4,306 nucleotides of DNA from a virus (IMGVR_UViG_2690316210_000001:1-4306); one strand, 5' to 3'. Positions 1 through 4,306 are shown, counted from the stretch's first letter. Program-made: numbers and translations. Notes: a model not told the origin generated them from the sequence alone.

Positions 1-38
1 TAAGTGATACTGGTTGTCTGGAGATTCAGGGGGCCAGT

Positions 39-2531
39 CTAATTAGCGCCAGCTTGAGCAATAGCATCAGCGATAGTTTCATCTAATCGGTCTTGTAAAC
101 CAATCAGGTCTTCCAGTGCTTCTTTGTCCTGATCTTCCCAGCTAATGCTAGACTTCATAGACAAGAAATAAGGTTCAGACCAGACAGCATCATCCATACC
201 GAAAATATCGTAGTGAGCACCACGGATATAATAATCACCATCAGCCAAATCAAAGGAAGTATGGCTAACGCTATTCGTGCTTACCGCCCTTGCATCGGAG
301 AAAGTGTTATCGGTTGCATACTGGATTATTGACCCTGCATAATCATGTTCTACGTCATCTGCCCAGCTAACAAACACACTATTAAAGCCACCACGCGCAC
401 TAAAACCTTCCATTGGCTTATGTTGTGGGTTAATAGCCACTAAACGCGCTGGGGCGCTCTCTGAGTTGTTATATCCCTTAACGGATACTTCTACCGTCAG
501 TTGACGCGAAAGGCCGTTAAACTGGTTCATATCAAGCGTATAAGTCCATGATTCAGGATCGCGGGTACGGTACTGAATAGACTTGCCAGCCTTGTTAGTT
601 ACTTTGATAAGATATGCTTCAAACAGATCACTAAACTTGCTAGTTTCACCGTTGATTTCAACATCTAGACCTTGCTGGTTATCCCATTCGATAATCAGAT
701 CATTGCCTTCGAAAGTACCAGGCGTGCTACCCTGATTTTTGATTCGAATAACCGGAGTCGGTAATTCATAGGTAACAGTAGGATTCTGGTTAATCAGTTC
801 TACCCAATCAGATCTCGCGATGATACCAAAAGCACAAACTCGGTAATCGTAAGAACGATCTTTTGCCAGTGCATTGACACTGAAAATTTGCTGTGAAGTC
901 TGTCCCAGCTTAATCCAGTTAGGTGATCCGCTTACACGGTAATCAATCTGGAAACCATAACGGTTAAAATCTTCAGGTGCATCCCATGTCAAAGTAACGT
1001 TTTTACCATAGATTGTTTCACCAGTTGCCTTAATTCTGAAATTAGTAGGCTTCTGTACTGTCATTGAATCCGGTAAACCGCTTGGTCGGTTATCTGGGTT
1101 AGCCGCATAGTTCAGGTCAGTATAAACCTGAGAATTATATTCTGTGGCGGTGATAGTCATCATCCCAGCAATACCAGAATCAATAGAGCGATCAATTGCA
1201 GTAATACGCCAAAGTGAATTATTCAGTTTCAATTCATCATAGGTTACGCTGATAACGTCCCAAACTTCGGCAGTGAATGCGTCAGTAGTCATGAAGCTGA
1301 TAACCTGAGTGATACGAGATTTATTTCGTTCTACACTCGCGAGTTTATCAATCTGGGCTTTAGACTTAACAAAACGATATTCGATATCCTTAGCAATAAT
1401 TCGACCATCTTGACGAATAGTAGCATCGTTTTCAGCATCAGCCGGATAACGTAGCATTTGCTCGGAATAGTCAATTGATGGTTCCTGATACATCGCGTTA
1501 ATGGTATTGAAATAACCGTTAGTGCCACCTGTTTTCAGTGATACCTTACCCATCATGATATTGTCTTCATTGAAGGTATGCTTAACAATATCAGGAGCAT
1601 CCAGTTTCAGAGTAATTCTTCCGAAGGATTCGAACATCACCCCGCCGAAAGTCTGCATAAGGCTAGTTAAGTTCTCTTTAAAGCTGGCGTTCGGATCACA
1701 TGCACCGTTTGAATGTAAATCCATCTGGCGTACTTGCTTGCGTACTTTCAGGAATGAATCAACGTTGATGTTTTCAATTGGTACACTAAGACCATATTTT
1801 TCATTTGTTAGGTAGTGGAAAATCTGGTCCACGCCGTTGGTGCTGGCTTCAATAGCATTGGTTTCAAGGTTACGAATCTTTAAGCCCATAACATCGACTG
1901 CTACCTGGCTATTTGGCTGGAGAATATCAACACCAGCAGCAAGAGATTTGTCATCACGACGTAACACAATACACATGGTTGCAATACCATTGCCTTTGTA
2001 GTTGTCGTTCCAGTCTGAGCCTAAATGACGTTTTGCCAGTGACAAAGCGGTGTTAGGATTCTTACCCGTGCGGAACTCAACTTCTAAAACTTTTCGGTAT
2101 TCTTCTTTAATGTTGCCTTTGTCCAGTACACCATCACGGATCGTCATGTTCTTACCAACAAGAACATTTTTATTATCGATAAACAGTGCTTTGTAATGGT
2201 CGATTTCACCCTCTGCAATTGCGAAGATTTGCACTAACTTATTGTTTTCTTGCTTGGAAATTGCTTTGTAAACGCAGATTGCACCCGTGCGGGTAGTACC
2301 GAAAAGAACGGGTAATACTGTCTTAGGATCGTTTGATGTTCCTAGTGTCACCGCATTATCTGGGCTTTGTACTTTCGGTGTTTTTGGTGCGCCTACAGTG
2401 GAAGCGATCAAAGTCATTGCACCAGCAGCCATACCGATAGCGACTGCGGTCATAACCGAAAATGTTGCGGCTGCCGCCATCCCCGCCGAAGCACCAGCAA
2501 TAACCGCGCCTACCAATACTTCAAATCCCAT
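39..2531 (-). CDS. Phage tail-tip hub / host-specificity protein J-like (830 aa), with N-terminal hydrophobic segment resembling tail assembly protein I and three FN3/Ig-like modules; lacks a C-terminal fibre/receptor-binding region
   Basis: Uninterrupted 831-codon frame. ATG at 2529..2531 overlaps the upstream stop as TAATG (minus strand) and is preceded by GGGGGTGA (plus 2535..2542), a one-mismatch match to the GGAGGTGA consensus. Residues ~95-260 (e.g. LVQIFAIAEGEIDHY, IFHYLTNEKYGLSVPIENINVDSF) resemble the N-terminal hub region of lambda J family proteins as I recall them. Residues ~495-790 show FN3 hallmarks (TLTWDAP, YDYRVCAFG, DYYIRGAHYD). Stop TAG at 39..41. Confidence 0.75.
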   Translation of the reverse strand: MGFEVLVGAVIAGASAGMAAAATFSVMTAVAIGMAAGAMTLIASTVGAPKTPKVQSPDNAVTLGTSNDPKTVLPVLFGTTRTGAICVYKAISKQENNKLVQIFAIAEGEIDHYKALFIDNKNVLVGKNMTIRDGVLDKGNIKEEYRKVLEVEFRTGKNPNTALSLAKRHLGSDWNDNYKGNGIATMCIVLRRDDKSLAAGVDILQPNSQVAVDVMGLKIRNLETNAIEASTNGVDQIFHYLTNEKYGLSVPIENINVDSFLKVRKQVRQMDLHSNGACDPNASFKENLTSLMQTFGGVMFESFGRITLKLDAPDIVKHTFNEDNIMMGKVSLKTGGTNGYFNTINAMYQEPSIDYSEQMLRYPADAENDATIRQDGRIIAKDIEYRFVKSKAQIDKLASVERNKSRITQVISFMTTDAFTAEVWDVISVTYDELKLNNSLWRITAIDRSIDSGIAGMMTITATEYNSQVYTDLNYAANPDNRPSGLPDSMTVQKPTNFRIKATGETIYGKNVTLTWDAPEDFNRYGFQIDYRVSGSPNWIKLGQTSQQIFSVNALAKDRSYDYRVCAFGIIARSDWVELINQNPTVTYELPTPVIRIKNQGSTPGTFEGNDLIIEWDNQQGLDVEINGETSKFSDLFEAYLIKVTNKAGKSIQYRTRDPESWTYTLDMNQFNGLSRQLTVEVSVKGYNNSESAPARLVAINPQHKPMEGFSARGGFNSVFVSWADDVEHDYAGSIIQYATDNTFSDARAVSTNSVSHTSFDLADGDYYIRGAHYDIFGMDDAVWSEPYFLSMKSSISWEDQDKEALEDLIGLQDRLDETIADAIAQAGAN
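162..1055 (-). other. Three tandem FN3/Ig-like beta-sandwich modules in the C-terminal third of the J-like protein (approx. nt 798..1055, 432..761, 162..419)
   Basis: Module 1 (aa ~493-578): VTLTWDAPEDF...YGFQIDYRV...YDYRVCAFG. Module 2 (aa ~591-700): LIIEWDNQ...YLIKV...LTVEVSVKGY. Module 3 (aa ~705-790): VFVSWADD...IIQYATD...DYYIRGAHYD. Boundaries are approximate. Confidence 0.55.
2388..2531 (-). other. Region encoding the Gly/Ala-rich hydrophobic N-terminal segment (aa 1-48) of the J-like protein; putative membrane-active or tail-lumen segment
   Basis: Translated sequence MGFEVLVGAVIAGASAGMAAAATFSVMTAVAIGMAAGAMTLIASTVGAPKTPK has one charged residue (E4) before the KTPK linker and repeated small-xxx-small spacing. 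The region is locally GC-rich from Ala/Gly codons. Confidence 0.55.
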
Positions 2532-2950
2532 TATTCACCCCCGAATCTATAAACTTGTTCATAGTCAATGTCTGAAACAGGAATGGTCATCCAGATACCA
2601 TCTTCTTCAACGAGGCCATAACCGGAATAATGAGGAACTACGGAATAATAATTACGGTTTCCTAATTTGTGGGCTGTGACCAGTAAGTCGCCGTCCTGTA
2701 AATCATCAGTGACTAATTTGAAATGTTTCTTAATTGGTTGAAGGATATTTGAATACCCGCTTAATTCTTTGCAGATTTTCAAACCTTCTTCTTTAGTTGA
2801 ATATTTTTTATAAAGAGAATTATATAGGTCAGTACCAGCGAGAATATCGATGATCTTACATGCAATTAGATTGCAATCATTCTCACCCTGAACGAACTCC
2901 TGACCTATTAAAGAATTGATGTAATCGGTGATAAGCCTAGTTTTTAGCAT
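2531..2950 (-). CDS. Putative NlpC/P60-like cysteine peptidase tail protein (139 aa), lambda K-like by position
   Basis: ATG at 2948..2950 is preceded by GGAGGT (plus 2958..2963) with a 7-nt spacer; stop TAA at 2531..2533 shares one base with the next start. Candidate catalytic residues in NlpC/P60-like order: Cys in GENDCNLIACK, then GDLLVTAHK and VVPHYSGYG. The ORF-track start at 3106 has no SD and overlaps the upstream gene by 110 nt, so the first 52 codons are probably not translated. Confidence 0.5.
   Translation of the reverse strand: MLKTRLITDYINSLIGQEFVQGENDCNLIACKIIDILAGTDLYNSLYKKYSTKEEGLKICKELSGYSNILQPIKKHFKLVTDDLQDGDLLVTAHKLGNRNYYSVVPHYSGYGLVEEDGIWMTIPVSDIDYEQVYRFGGE
2535..2542 (-). 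promoter_or_regulatory. Shine-Dalgarno-like GGGGGTGA for the J-like gene, embedded in the last codons of the peptidase gene
   Basis: Plus TCACCCCC at 2535..2542 is GGGGGTGA on the minus strand, 3 nt 5' of ATG 2529..2531 (6 nt after the G-run). Confidence 0.5.
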
Positions 2951-2957
2951 GTTGAAT

Positions 2958-2963
2958 ACCTCC
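2958..2963 (-). promoter_or_regulatory. Shine-Dalgarno GGAGGT for the peptidase gene
   Basis: Plus ACCTCC at 2958..2963 is GGAGGT on the minus strand, 7 nt 5' of ATG 2948..2950. Confidence 0.55.
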
Positions 2964-2996
2964 ATGCTGTTATTTACTAGGCTTAGGGAGAAGGGA

Positions 2997-3650
2997 TTAT
3001 TTCTTCGATGAATGCCACTTGCTTTCGCTATTCCACTTCCCGGCACGGGAGAAGAATAGATCGTTCTCGTTTCCGGCATAGGATCGGTGGATACCATCGG
3101 AGGCATGACTACGAGCGTTTTTATCTAGAACTTCCCAGATACTATTAAGCTGAAATTCTGATTCGTTTTTACACTCATCATCTTCATGTTCGATGTTAAT
3201 CCCGATGGAATCGACTACCCCACGGAAAACAGGGTAAGTGGTTTCAACTTTGCCCGTGTTGGGGTTAAGGAAAACCATCTCGATTTTCACATCTGATTTA
3301 TCGAATTGCTTGTTTCGAATGAGAGTAATGTATTCTTCGCGAACGTTAGAAACAGTTACGTTGATCCCGTTGTTGTTGATCTCCTTCTCTTCGGTATTCG
3401 ATGAGATTTGAAGAAAATCACCCGTTGCGAGATACGTAAATCCGTTATAGTCCAAATCGAAATACCCATCTGTAAGCCGTAGAACGTCCCCTGACGCTGT
3501 TATCACTTCGATAATGTGAAACATCGATCCAGTGGAGAAAAGCTGCGGTAGCGTCAATCTAGACACGTTCTGACCTGTCTGGTCGTTGTACACCTCGATG
3601 AAGTCCAGATTAGTGCATAGTTTGCTGAATGATTCCTGAATAGTTGCCAT
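2997..3650 (-). CDS. Minor tail protein (217 aa), tentatively lambda L-like by size and position
   Basis: ATG at 3648..3650 overlaps the upstream TAA (3650..3652) as TAATG and has GGAG (plus 3659..3662) 8 nt upstream. The ORF-track start at 3704 is a TTG with no SD. Only two Cys residues, so no four-Cys cluster motif is present. Family assignment rests on synteny and size only. Confidence 0.45.
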   Translation of the reverse strand: MATIQESFSKLCTNLDFIEVYNDQTGQNVSRLTLPQLFSTGSMFHIIEVITASGDVLRLTDGYFDLDYNGFTYLATGDFLQISSNTEEKEINNNGINVTVSNVREEYITLIRNKQFDKSDVKIEMVFLNPNTGKVETTYPVFRGVVDSIGINIEHEDDECKNESEFQLNSIWEVLDKNARSHASDGIHRSYAGNENDLFFSRAGKWNSESKWHSSKK

Positions 3651-4210
3651 TATACATTCTCCACTAATTCGAATTTCATCTTGCCAATCTGGGCGATCTT
3701 CCAATCGATATTTTCAGTTTTGAGAACAAATTCACCCTCTACGTTCTGATACTTGATCACCTCACCCGCTAGAACGTTCTGACGCAAGTTAGGGAAGAGT
3801 TTCATTTCACCACCTGATTTCACGTCTTCGGTGATCGTGTAGATTTTCTTGTGGTTCTCAAACTGGATGATAGTTCCTGCTTTCAGTGTTCCGGTGAAGT
3901 TGGAGATTCTCACCTTACGCCCACCGCGAGCAGTACCAGCAGCAGCCGTAACCATCTGGCGTACATCACCTGTATATTTTGAAAAGTAAGACAGCGGCAC
4001 ACTGAAAGGACGACCAAAAAGGTGACGTGCTACAAATTCTTTTACTTCGTTAATATCCTGAGCCATGAAATTAGCGGTAAATTCTGCTTCATAAAAATGA
4101 ATACCAGTAAAGCGACGCTGGAACTTACCAGAAATAGATTGCGCCTTGAAGAAAGGCTGTTTTGATTTAAGAGTAAAATCTGTGATTTTAATATTTTTGG
4201 ATTTGAACAT
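3650..4210 (-). CDS. Minor/distal tail protein (186 aa), tentatively lambda M-like by position
   Basis: Open frame ending TAA at 3650..3652. ATG at 4208..4210 (MFKSKNIKITDF...) lies just 3' of the hairpin and U-run on the minus strand, with a GGGGG run 8 nt upstream. The ORF-track start at 4246 is a GTG that places the hairpin inside the coding sequence; ATG at 4223..4225 is a third candidate. The C-terminus KMKFELVENV and the basic N-terminus weakly recall lambda M from memory. Confidence 0.45.
   Translation of the reverse strand: MFKSKNIKITDFTLKSKQPFFKAQSISGKFQRRFTGIHFYEAEFTANFMAQDINEVKEFVARHLFGRPFSVPLSYFSKYTGDVRQMVTAAAGTARGGRKVRISNFTGTLKAGTIIQFENHKKIYTITEDVKSGGEMKLFPNLRQNVLAGEVIKYQNVEGEFVLKTENIDWKIAQIGKMKFELVENV
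3659..3662 (-). promoter_or_regulatory. Shine-Dalgarno GGAG for the 217-aa minor tail protein gene
   Basis: Plus CTCC at 3659..3662 is GGAG on the minus strand, 8 nt 5' of ATG 3648..3650, within the 3' end of the upstream gene. Confidence 0.45.
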
Positions 4211-4212
4211 AG

Positions 4213-4258
4213 AAAAAGCCCCCATAGTTTTATGATTATTTATCACTATGGGGGGCTT
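4213..4258 (-). terminator. Putative intrinsic terminator / mRNA-stabilising hairpin on the minus strand
   Basis: Plus 4216..4227 AAGCCCCCATAG pairs with 4246..4258 CTATGGGGGGCTT (12-13 bp stem, one bulged G, AT-rich ~16-18 nt loop). The minus-strand RNA reads stem-GGGGGCUUUUUCUAUG, a U-run immediately 3' of the stem. The loop is larger than in typical terminators. Confidence 0.4.
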
Positions 4259-4306
4259 GGTGATGCTGCCAACTTACTGATTTAGTGTATGATGGTGTTT
4301 TTGAGG

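What the first reader, a model, noticed from the sequence alone, without database searches (positions are those of the whole stretch)
2531..2950. Small stand-alone NlpC/P60-like putative cysteine peptidase in the K position
The 139-aa product has Cys (NDCNLIACK) and His (TAHK, PHYSG) candidates in NlpC/P60 order. It is shorter than lambda K (199 aa), which I recall as carrying an MPN/JAB region plus NlpC/P60, so this looks like a minimal peptidase-only version. It could act on peptidoglycan or on a tail-assembly substrate. Its last codons also carry the SD for the J-like gene.
Basis: partly seen in the sequence, partly recalled or inferred. Interest (0 to 1): 0.45.

Follow-up and report, generated by a model that had tools for sequence, protein, structure and literature searches.

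The report
His-less NlpC/P60-fold tail-tip protein (DUF6950)
This small prophage gene encodes a stripped-down relative of the NlpC/P60 cell-wall peptidases in the phage lambda "K" slot of a tail-tip gene cluster; it keeps the catalytic cysteine but has lost the catalytic histidine, so it is probably a tail-assembly helper, not an ordinary peptidase.

Summary
The 139-aa ORF (2950..2531, minus strand) is real. It is identical to the RefSeq "DUF6950 family protein" of intact E. coli prophages and matches Pfam DUF6950 (E=3.3e-12), with no direct NLPC_P60 hit.

**Catalytic residues.** The Cys-His peptidase reading does not hold.
- Cys26 is invariant (51/51).
- The canonical catalytic His aligns to Ser103.
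- No His column is conserved. One member in identical synteny has no histidine at all yet folds confidently (pLDDT 96).

**Most likely role.** It is probably a tail-tip assembly or lumen factor with non-canonical or lost hydrolase chemistry.

**This copy.** It lies in a prophage fragment bracketed by IS1 and IS2.

Modest interest; a new variant of a known kind.

The parts
2531..2950 (-). 139-aa DUF6950-family gene: a minimal NlpC/P60-fold protein in the K / g14 slot
2873..2875 (-). Codon of Cys26, the nucleophile-equivalent, at the N-terminus of helix 26-38
   Evidence: Invariant in 51/51 representatives. Aligned to the catalytic Cys of lambda K (TDC) and of R4C gp15 (CDC). The helix starts at residue 26 in the model.
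2642..2644 (-). Codon of Ser103, which occupies the position of the canonical catalytic His
   Evidence: hhalign against the K family and against R4C gp15 both place Ser103 opposite the catalytic His. Counting back from the end of strand 99-108 gives the same register. The family column is S17/A8/C6/H5/D3.
2669..2671 (-). Codon of His94 (TAHK), on strand beta2 next to the catalytic strand; the only possible substitute base in this clade
   Evidence: Conserved in 17/18 of the enterobacterial clade but Glu in P0017. Only 11/51 in the family. Aligns to a hydrophobic residue of the K family.
2630..2632 (-). Codon of His107 (PHYSG), which aligns to the conserved Tyr of the HxxxY strand and not to a catalytic residue
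   Evidence: hhalign. Tyr in 13 of 18 close homologues. The family column is V13/Y10/C10/H8/F6.
2959..2963 (-). GGAGG ribosome-binding site of the 139-aa gene, 8 nt before the ATG
   Evidence: Read directly from the sequence.
2535..2542 (-). GGGGGTGA SD-like sequence inside the last codons, 3 nt before the ATG of the tail-tip gene; stop and start overlap at 2531 (TAATG)
   Evidence: Read directly from the sequence.
39..2531 (-). Tail-tip (J-like) gene with an N-terminal lambda-gpI C-domain-like hydrophobic segment (an I-J fusion); the C-terminus is truncated by IS2
   Evidence: Phage-tail_3, fn3 and phrog tail hits. The intact homologue is 1258 aa with Phage_Tail_Tip and Ig_GpJ_C. Residues 48-107 match gpI 156-223, E=3e-7. 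The match to intact prophages ends at base 42.
2997..3650 (-). Baseplate hub gene (lambda L / RcGTA g13 N-terminal domain type, 217 aa), without an Fe-S domain
   Evidence: PF09931 E=1e-05. phrog_2048, tail. RefSeq annotates DUF2163 / baseplate hub. No conserved Cys.
3650..4210 (-). Distal tail protein (Dit) gene
   Evidence: phrog_1302, distal tail protein, E=3.1e-16. RefSeq coordinates transferred from L001.
1..41 (.). End of an IS2 copy that truncates the tail-tip gene
   Evidence: 100% match to annotated IS2 ends.
4258..4306 (.). End of an IS1 copy inserted just upstream of the Dit gene, replacing the tape-measure gene
   Evidence: 100% match to annotated IS1 terminal repeats. In intact prophages the tape-measure gene follows here.

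Best explanation
**What it is.** The gene encodes a DUF6950-family protein. This is a minimal, highly diverged NlpC/P60-fold (papain-like) domain.

- It is the evolutionary and positional counterpart of the NlpC/P60 half of lambda gpK and of the RcGTA g14 / roseophage R4C gp15 "tail peptidase".
- It sits in a translationally coupled tail-tip operon: Dit, hub, this gene, then an I-J-type tail-tip fusion.

**What is shown.**
- It keeps the fold, the G-x-x-DC nucleophile motif with Cys26 at a helix N-terminus, the GD turn and the C-terminal [YW]R strand.
- The canonical catalytic His is replaced by Ser103.
- The third triad position (about Glu115) is not conserved.
- The family as a whole has no conserved histidine.

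**What is inferred.**
- The conserved job of this protein is probably the one genetics assigns to gpK and g14: an essential step in building the tail tip. It is possibly carried as a single copy in the tail lumen next to the tape-measure C-terminus.
- It is unlikely to be a canonical Cys-His-His gamma-D-Glu-diamino-acid endopeptidase reaction.
- The invariant Asp-Cys implies that the thiol still matters, for residual or non-canonical catalysis or for a thiol-dependent interaction. That chemistry is unknown.

**This copy.** In this window the gene is intact but sits in a prophage fragment cut down by IS1 and IS2. The tape-measure gene and the tail-tip C-terminus are missing, so here it is most likely a non-functioning remnant.
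For: **Family.** Pfam DUF6950 scores 47.1 bits against a cutoff of 27. All 51 representatives hit DUF6950.

**Homology.**
- hhalign of the 51-member profile against the K family gives Prob 88, p=3.5e-7, covering the whole domain.
- Bridge sequences exist. P0054 hits NLPC_P60 at 22.8 bits. R4C gp15 hits NLPC_P60 at E=5.2e-6 and DUF6950 at E=2.3e-5.

**Synteny.**
- TMP, Dit, hub, DUF6950, tail tip is found in the E. coli prophage and in three distant loci.
- The order matches R4C gp12-16 and lambda H-M-L-K-I-J.

**Loss of His.**
- Ser103 lies opposite the catalytic His in two alignments.
- No His column is conserved, and P0076 has zero His. It sits in the same synteny and folds with the same secondary-structure order at pLDDT 96.1.

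**Assembly role of the counterparts.**
- Loss of g14 abolishes gene transfer (PMC3423380), and only empty heads without tails were then observed (PMC7296036).
- gpK is required for tail assembly, was not found in virions by mass spectrometry and has not been resolved (PMC10721106; PMC12617516).

**Selection.** The flanking hub and Dit genes show dN/dS of 0-0.02 against the intact prophage.
Against: - An invariant Cys (51/51) preceded by an almost invariant Asp is not what a fully dead pseudoenzyme usually shows. It argues for retained chemistry.
- His94 is conserved in 17/18 of the close clade amid variable neighbours. It should face the same side of the sheet as Ser103, so it could act as a relocated base.
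- RcGTA g14 does clear peptidoglycan in a zymogram, so the slot is occupied by an active enzyme in at least one system.
- The residue mapping in the beta2-beta3 region rests on profile alignments of moderate confidence (Prob 88). MAFFT columns there are uncertain by about 2 residues.
- A tail-lumen location and an assembly role are transferred from distant homologues and were not shown for this family.
Confidence: 0.5

Rival explanations
1. It is an active virion-associated peptidoglycan peptidase that uses a non-canonical dyad. Cys26 is the nucleophile and His94, relocated to the neighbouring beta-strand, replaces the lost canonical His. The enzyme is ejected from the tail lumen to cut the cell wall during infection, as proposed for RcGTA g14 and R4C gp15.
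For: - NlpC/P60 fold with an invariant DC motif.
- His94 is conserved in 17/18 of the clade.
- In A2, His occurs at column 94 (11 sequences) or column 103 (5 sequences), never both.
- g14 is zymogram-positive.
- No other lysin domain was detected in the tape-measure or tail-tip proteins of the intact prophage; the only other wall hydrolase is an M15 endolysin in the lysis cassette.
Against: - P0017, a close homologue, has Glu at position 94.
- 40 of 51 representatives lack His94, and many lack His at both positions.
- P0076 has no His at all yet keeps the synteny and the fold.
- The apparent mutual exclusion of His94 and His103 is not significant: about 1.1 co-occurrences are expected and 0 are seen.
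- There is no direct NLPC_P60, CHAP or NCBIfam hit.
Confidence: 0.25
2. The invariant cysteine carries out non-hydrolytic thiol chemistry in tail-tip assembly. Candidates are a transient thioester or acyl transfer (as in LRAT-type NlpC/P60 acyltransferases), a disulfide or redox pair, or a metal site formed with Cys/His on strand beta3.
For: - Cys26 is invariant without a conserved His.
- Columns 103, 104 and 107 on the catalytic strand are enriched in Cys and His. In P0076 the His-equivalent is Cys101 and the Tyr-equivalent is Cys105.
- A HlyC-type acyltransferase occupies the same slot in pelagiphage HTVC112P.
Against: - This is purely inferential.
- The Cys-rich beta3 is confined to a subset and is absent from this protein (Ser103, Val104, His107).
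- The hub proteins of these modules have no conserved Cys that could share a cluster.
- LRAT-type enzymes also need the His.
Confidence: 0.12
3. It is a fully inert structural or chaperone pseudoenzyme. The Asp-Cys pair is retained only because it caps the helix and packs the core.
For: The His and the third triad residue are lost. gpK-type proteins are absent from or unresolved in virions, which fits a chaperone.
Against: Cys is the single invariant residue among representatives that are at most about 50% identical to each other and 19-83% identical to the window protein. Ser or Ala would cap the helix equally well, and they never appear in 51 sequences.
Confidence: 0.15

Closest known systems
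Phage lambda gpK (tail assembly protein K, 'C40 family peptidase'; JAB/MPN + NlpC/P60)
   Same: - Same slot, after the L-type hub gene and before the I/J tail-tip genes.
- The NlpC/P60 domain is homologous by profile-profile alignment, p=3.5e-7.
- Shared motifs: G-x-x-DC, GD and the C-terminal [YW]R.
- gpK's function is also unknown. It is required for tail assembly and not seen in virions.
   Different: - No JAB/MPN domain.
- K keeps the Cys-His-His residues (TDC, NHAAIY, LLHH), whereas this protein has Ser103 and about Glu115 at those positions.
- There is no separate I gene with a ubiquitin-like domain. Only the gpI C-terminal segment is present, fused to the J-like protein.
- 139 aa against about 247 aa.
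RcGTA g14 (Rcc01697) and roseophage R4C gp15 'cell wall peptidase'
   Same: - Same module: Dit, hub with the PF09931 N-domain, a small NlpC/P60-fold protein, then a giant tail-tip ('megatron') protein with a hydrophobic N-terminus and PF13550.
- Similar size to g14 (about 150 aa).
- R4C gp15 scores on both the NLPC_P60 and the DUF6950 profiles.
   Different: - g14 and gp15 keep the Cys-His-His triad, and g14 degrades peptidoglycan in a zymogram (sequence).
- This protein lacks the His.
- Its hub lacks the BR0599 / Fe-S domain.
- No NCBIfam phage NlpC/P60 model matches it.
Canonical bacterial NlpC/P60 (MEROPS C40) endopeptidases, e.g. E. coli MepS/Spr, B. subtilis LytE, E. faecium SagA
   Different: - 11-17% identity.
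- No PF00877 hit.
- No signal peptide or cell-wall-binding domain.
- The catalytic His and the third residue are not conserved.
- Extra helices lie between the Cys helix and the sheet, carrying a family-specific invariant aromatic residue (Tyr50).
Pfam PF22262 DUF6950
   Same: It is a member: 47.1 bits against a cutoff of 27. RefSeq already names the identical protein 'DUF6950 family protein'.
   Different: Nothing differs. However, the family has no assigned function, and no paper in the library mentions it.

Membership tests
Pfam PF22262 (DUF6950) | Profile match above the curated gathering score | tested here: met
   47.1 bits against a cutoff of 27, E=3.3e-12, residues 7-127.
NlpC/P60 superfamily (Pfam PF00877 / MEROPS C40) | Papain-like alpha+beta fold with the nucleophile Cys at the N-terminus of a helix packed on an antiparallel sheet | tested here: met
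NlpC/P60 superfamily (Pfam PF00877 / MEROPS C40) | Significant sequence-profile match to PF00877 | tested here: not met
   No NLPC_P60 hit at E<=1 for this protein. The relation is only indirect: hhalign to the K family at p=3.5e-7, and 3 of 51 relatives give weak PF00877 hits, best 22.8 bits against a cutoff of 23.
NlpC/P60 superfamily (Pfam PF00877 / MEROPS C40) | Conserved catalytic Cys in a D-C-x motif | tested here: met
   Cys26 is present in 51/51 and Asp25 in 50/51. Cys26 aligns to the catalytic Cys of K and of R4C gp15.
NlpC/P60 superfamily (Pfam PF00877 / MEROPS C40) | Catalytic His at the start of the strand after the GD hairpin | tested here: not met
   Ser103 is aligned to the His in both alignments. 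No His column is conserved, and P0076 has no His.
NlpC/P60 superfamily (Pfam PF00877 / MEROPS C40) | Third polar triad residue (His/Glu/Gln/Asn) on the next strand | tested here: inconclusive
   It aligns to Glu115 (K alignment) or Val114 (R4C alignment). The column is E/A/S/V/L in the family and E/T/A/V in the close clade.
NlpC/P60 superfamily (Pfam PF00877 / MEROPS C40) | Peptidoglycan or amide hydrolase, or acyltransferase, activity | not testable with these tools
   This needs purified protein (zymogram, muropeptide HPLC).
Lambda gpK-type tail assembly protein | Gene between the L-type hub gene and the I/J tail-tip genes | tested here: met
   The same order holds in three distant loci.
Lambda gpK-type tail assembly protein | N-terminal JAB/MPN domain, with a ubiquitin-like gpI partner | tested here: not met
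   No Prok-JAB hit. No I gene is present; only the gpI C-terminal segment, fused to the J-like protein. NlpC-only variants of this kind were noted in PMC1779556.
Lambda gpK-type tail assembly protein | Required for tail-tip assembly | not testable with these tools
   This needs a knockout in an inducible intact prophage.
RcGTA g14 / R4C gp15-type tail peptidase | Small NlpC/P60 protein encoded between a PF09931 hub and a PF13550 megatron-like tail-tip protein | tested here: met
RcGTA g14 / R4C gp15-type tail peptidase | Cys-His-His triad and peptidoglycan-degrading activity | tested here: not met
   The triad residues are absent. Activity itself was not testable. No NCBIfam model matches.

The most novel reading that the evidence does not exclude
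DUF6950 proteins may be a histidine-less lineage of the NlpC/P60 fold. In this reading the one invariant residue, the nucleophile cysteine, performs a non-hydrolytic or single-turnover thiol reaction on a tail-tip component, such as the hydrophobic I-type plug, the tape-measure C-terminus or the hub. Possible reactions are a covalent intermediate, an acyl transfer or a redox/disulfide step. If so, the conserved and still unexplained job of the gpK/g14 slot in siphophage tail assembly would be this thiol step and not cell-wall cleavage.
Probability: 0.12. Interest if true: 0.65.

Novelty: new variant of a known kind. Interest (0 to 1): 0.35.

Why it matters
gpK of phage lambda and its counterparts (RcGTA g14, F-pyocin PyoF8) are genetically required for tails. 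They have never been located in a structure, and their role is still called unknown in 2025-2026 papers.

DUF6950 is a natural family in the same slot that has shed both the JAB domain and the catalytic histidine while keeping the fold and the cysteine. That suggests canonical peptidoglycan hydrolysis is not the conserved function of the slot. It also gives a small 139-aa, single-domain protein in which to test what the cysteine does.

It also assigns a fold and a genomic role to a Pfam DUF. The practical impact is modest. The protein is already catalogued as DUF6950, NlpC-only K variants were noted in 2006, and this particular copy lies in a decayed prophage.

Tried and rejected
- **Sequence search against PDB.** With the protein alone and with the 51-member profile, I got only spurious hits (Zwilch, botulinum neurotoxin) and one NlpC/P60 chain at E=0.67.
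- **NCBIfam.** No hit for any of the four genes.
- **afdb50.** This fold library was not available.
- **hhalign with the close clade only (A1).** The alignment to K stops at the GD motif, before the His region, E=0.034. The global alignment to the single R4C sequence failed.
- **Pairwise BLASTP to R4C gp15.** Not significant.
- **Shared Fe-S ligand idea.** I considered whether Cys26 shares an Fe-S cluster with the hub, as in gpL or g13. I rejected it because the hub proteins of four such modules have 0-3 Cys and none is conserved.
- **His migration from position 103 to 94.** The mutual exclusion is suggestive but not significant, and many members have His at neither position.
- **Wider family search with the diverse profile.** It added only three new members.
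- **tblastn against the phage collection.** Only two records carry a relative.
- **Records not held.** The phiJL001 record and the Anantharaman & Aravind 2003 paper were not in the collections.
- **Model coordinates.** These are not exposed, so Cys26-His94 and Cys26-Ser103 distances could not be measured.
Full report
**1. What is in the window**

All long ORFs lie on the minus strand and form a siphophage tail-tip module.
- 4210..3650: a distal tail protein (phrog_1302, E=3.1e-16).
- 3650..2997: a baseplate hub with the phiJL001-gp84 / RcGTA-g13 N-terminal domain (PF09931, E=1e-05; phrog_2048 "tail protein").
- 2950..2531: the 139-aa ORF of the finding.
- 2531..39: a J-like tail-tip protein (PF13550, fn3, several tail PHROGs).

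The two ends of the window are IS ends: IS2 at 1-41 and IS1 at 4258-4306. The stretch in between (42-4258) is found at 94-97% identity in 54 complete E. coli genomes.

In one of these, strain VTB96775v, it is part of an intact prophage inserted in ycdX. The gene order there is:
- tape measure (809 aa);
- Dit (186 aa);
- hub (217 aa, "DUF2163");
- "DUF6950 family protein" (139 aa);
- "phage tail tip domain-containing protein" (1258 aa).

The full-length tail-tip protein ends in the lambda gpJ receptor-binding domain (Ig_GpJ_C, E=7.7e-34). That prophage also has a separate M15 endolysin. In the window the tail-tip gene is cut by IS2 after about 829 of 1258 residues, and the tape-measure gene is replaced by IS1. 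This copy is therefore a prophage remnant.

**2. The observation**

The ORF, its length and the quoted motifs are all present.
- Cys26 lies in NDCNLIACK, His94 in TAHK and His107 in PHYSG.
- A GGAGG sits 8 nt before the ATG.
- The stop codon overlaps the ATG of the tail-tip gene (TAATG).
- The last three codons spell GGGGGTGA, 3 nt before that ATG.

The Dit stop and the hub start also overlap, so the four genes look translationally coupled.

The gene is 100% identical in DNA to the copy in the intact prophage. The neighbouring hub and Dit genes differ at dS of about 0.09-0.14 with dN/dS of 0-0.02.

The annotated 199-aa K carries NLPC_P60 (E=3.4e-13) and the C-terminal part of a Prok-JAB domain. 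Most of its listed homologues are 242-249 aa with both domains complete.

**3. Family, fold and homology**

Direct searches:
- Pfam gives DUF6950 (PF22262), 47.1 bits against a cutoff of 27.
- It gives no NLPC_P60, CHAP or JAB hit at E<=1.
- NCBIfam gives nothing.
- PHROGs gives a family of unknown function.
- No paper in the library mentions DUF6950.

An AlphaFold2 model built from 18 close homologues is confident (pLDDT 89.7, pTM 0.83). It places Cys26 exactly at the start of helix 26-38, followed by a six-stranded sheet.

Fold searches:
- Foldseek sees the same proteins only weakly (MepS, E=0.06).
- In the viral structure library the best matches are phage DUF6950 proteins, followed by phage NlpC/P60 proteins.

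A profile search of 1.8 billion representatives found 55 relatives. I aligned 51 full-length ones, which are 19-83% identical to the window protein (A2). All 51 hit DUF6950, and three also give weak NLPC_P60 hits; the best is P0054 at 22.8 bits, E=9.3e-5.

hhalign of this profile against a lambda-K family alignment covers the whole NlpC/P60 domain (Prob 88, p=3.5e-7).

Roseophage R4C gp15 is the annotated "cell wall peptidase" encoded between an RcGTA-type hub and the megatron protein. It hits both NLPC_P60 (E=5.2e-6) and DUF6950 (E=2.3e-5).

I conclude that DUF6950 is a diverged branch of the phage-tail NlpC/P60 proteins.

**4. The catalytic residues**

Across the 51 representatives, conservation is as follows.
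- Cys26 is the only invariant residue.
- Asp25 (50/51), Gly22, Tyr50 and Gly87 are at least 90% conserved.

Both hhalign alignments put Cys26 opposite the catalytic Cys: TDC in K and CDC in R4C gp15. Both also put Ser103 opposite the catalytic His: NHAAIY in K and AHVGIL in gp15. Counting back six residues from the end of strand 99-108 gives the same answer.

The other candidate positions behave as follows.
It is Tyr in 13 of 18 close homologues.
- The third triad residue maps to Glu115 or Val114, which varies even among close homologues.

Family-wide column counts are:
- column 103: S17/A8/C6/H5/D3;
- column 94: His in 11 of 51;
- column 107: V13/Y10/C10/H8/F6.

Some representatives have a single histidine located elsewhere. 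P0076 has none at all, yet it is encoded in the same TMP-Dit-hub-DUF6950-tail-tip arrangement. Its model is very confident (pLDDT 96.1) and has the same order of helices and strands. There, Cys101 sits at the His position and Cys105 at the Tyr position.

Two further distant members, from a metagenome and from a Shewanella genome, show the same synteny.

The family-wide function therefore cannot depend on a Cys-His dyad.

**5. How it most likely works**

What is shown:
- an NlpC/P60 fold;
- an invariant nucleophile-type Cys at a helix N-terminus;
- loss of the canonical His;
- strict linkage to the hub and tail-tip genes.

What is known about the homologous slot:
- RcGTA g14 has a Cys-His-His triad and clears peptidoglycan in a zymogram, and its deletion abolishes gene transfer (PMC3423380).
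- In the delta-g14 strain only empty heads without tails were seen. An unmodelled monomer-sized density in the tail lumen next to the tape-measure C-terminus was tentatively assigned to g14 (PMC7296036). The same assignment was made in R4C (PMC10276861).
- Lambda gpK is required for tail assembly. It was not detected in virions by mass spectrometry and has not been resolved (PMC10721106; PMC12617516). Its F-pyocin counterpart was likewise unresolved (PMC13455828).

My inference is that the conserved role of the slot is a step in tail-tip assembly, possibly with the protein retained in the lumen. DUF6950 would perform that role without canonical peptidoglycan hydrolysis.

The invariant Asp-Cys argues that the thiol is still used. 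In this enterobacterial clade His94 (17/18) might serve as a relocated base. I give that rival about 25%, because one close homologue has Glu there and most of the family lacks it. I also list a non-hydrolytic thiol role and a fully inert scaffold as rivals.

I could not measure distances in the model, and that measurement is the first thing to do.

**6. Comparison with what is known, and novelty**

The module matches a variant that Iyer, Burroughs and Aravind described in 2006. In that variant TAPI is fused to TAPJ, and the accompanying K version carries only the NlpC/P60 domain (PMC1779556).

The window fits this description. The first ~107 residues of its tail-tip protein carry a Gly/Ala-rich hydrophobic stretch followed by a segment homologous to gpI residues 156-223 (E=3e-7). 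That segment lies in the part of gpI that forms the plug in the lambda tip. There is no ubiquitin-like domain and no JAB, which fits their idea that JAB and the Ub-like domain work as a pair.

A stand-alone NlpC/P60-like K is therefore not new, and the protein is already labelled DUF6950 in RefSeq. Three points seem not to have been described, at least in the searchable literature:
- DUF6950 is an NlpC/P60 fold;
- it is the K/g14 equivalent;
- it has systematically lost the catalytic histidine while keeping the cysteine.

I rate it a new variant of a known kind, of modest interest (0.35).

**7. Caveats**

- The residue equivalences rest on profile alignments of moderate confidence and on predicted structures.
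- MAFFT columns in the beta2-beta3 hairpin are uncertain by about two residues. The count of "His at the canonical position" (5 of 51) may therefore be an underestimate. The absence of any conserved His and the existence of a His-free member do not depend on the alignment.
- The functional statements are transferred from distant homologues.

Noticed in passing
window 1-41 and 4258-4306: The window is a prophage fragment bracketed by an IS2 end and an IS1 end. IS2 truncates the tail-tip gene after about 829 of 1258 codons. IS1 sits immediately upstream of the Dit gene, where intact prophages carry the tape-measure gene.
   Followed up: partly
window 2211-2531 (minus strand; residues 1-107 of the tail-tip protein): The N-terminus of the J-like protein is a Gly/Ala-rich hydrophobic stretch followed by a segment homologous to the C-terminal domain of lambda gpI (residues 156-223, E=3e-7). 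This makes it an I-J fusion without the ubiquitin-like domain, resembling the hydrophobic N-terminus of the R4C/RcGTA megatron. The tail-tip proteins next to distant DUF6950 genes (L006, L009, L010) lack this hydrophobic leader.
   Followed up: partly
L004 6471-6857 (Pelagibacter phage HTVC112P gp46): In this pelagiphage the slot between the PF09931 hub and the giant tail protein is occupied by a 128-aa HlyC-type RTX-toxin acyltransferase homologue (PF02794, E=3e-16), not by an NlpC/P60-like protein. An acyltransferase in the K/g14 slot is unexplained.
   Followed up: no
window 2531-2950 versus L001 16490-16909: The 420-nt DUF6950 gene is identical in DNA between the window and the E. coli VTB96775v prophage. 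The adjacent hub and Dit genes differ at dS of 0.09 and 0.14. This suggests mosaic recombination with a breakpoint near the hub/DUF6950 junction.
   Followed up: no
window 2997-3650 (hub) and hubs in L002, L006, L009, L010: The hub proteins of DUF6950-type modules have only the N-terminal attachment domain. They have no BR0599 / gpL-type iron-sulfur domain and no conserved cysteine, unlike lambda gpL and the RcGTA/R4C hubs.
   Followed up: partly
L002 (Escherichia phage DCP80, PQ671644.1, record 17462-22437): A record classified as Straboviridae/Tevenvirinae (141 kb) carries this siphovirus-type hub, DUF6950, tail-tip module. The DUF6950 ORF (record 18285-18668) is not annotated there. The record may be a chimeric assembly or may be misclassified.
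   Followed up: no
P0076, P0040, P0047, P0049, P0063, P0064, P0067 (family members, strand beta3): A subset of DUF6950 proteins has two or three cysteines on the strand that normally carries the catalytic His. In P0076, for example, Cys101 is at the His position and Cys105 at the Tyr position, facing the invariant Cys. This could be a disulfide or a metal site and is unexplained.
   Followed up: partly
window 2531-3106 (minus strand): The mechanical ORF list gives a longer 191-aa reading from ATG 3106 that overlaps the 3' end of the hub gene in another frame. Similarly, the listed Dit and hub ORFs start 36 and 54 nt upstream of the RefSeq starts. The shorter starts fit the homologues and the stop/start overlaps.
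   Followed up: yes
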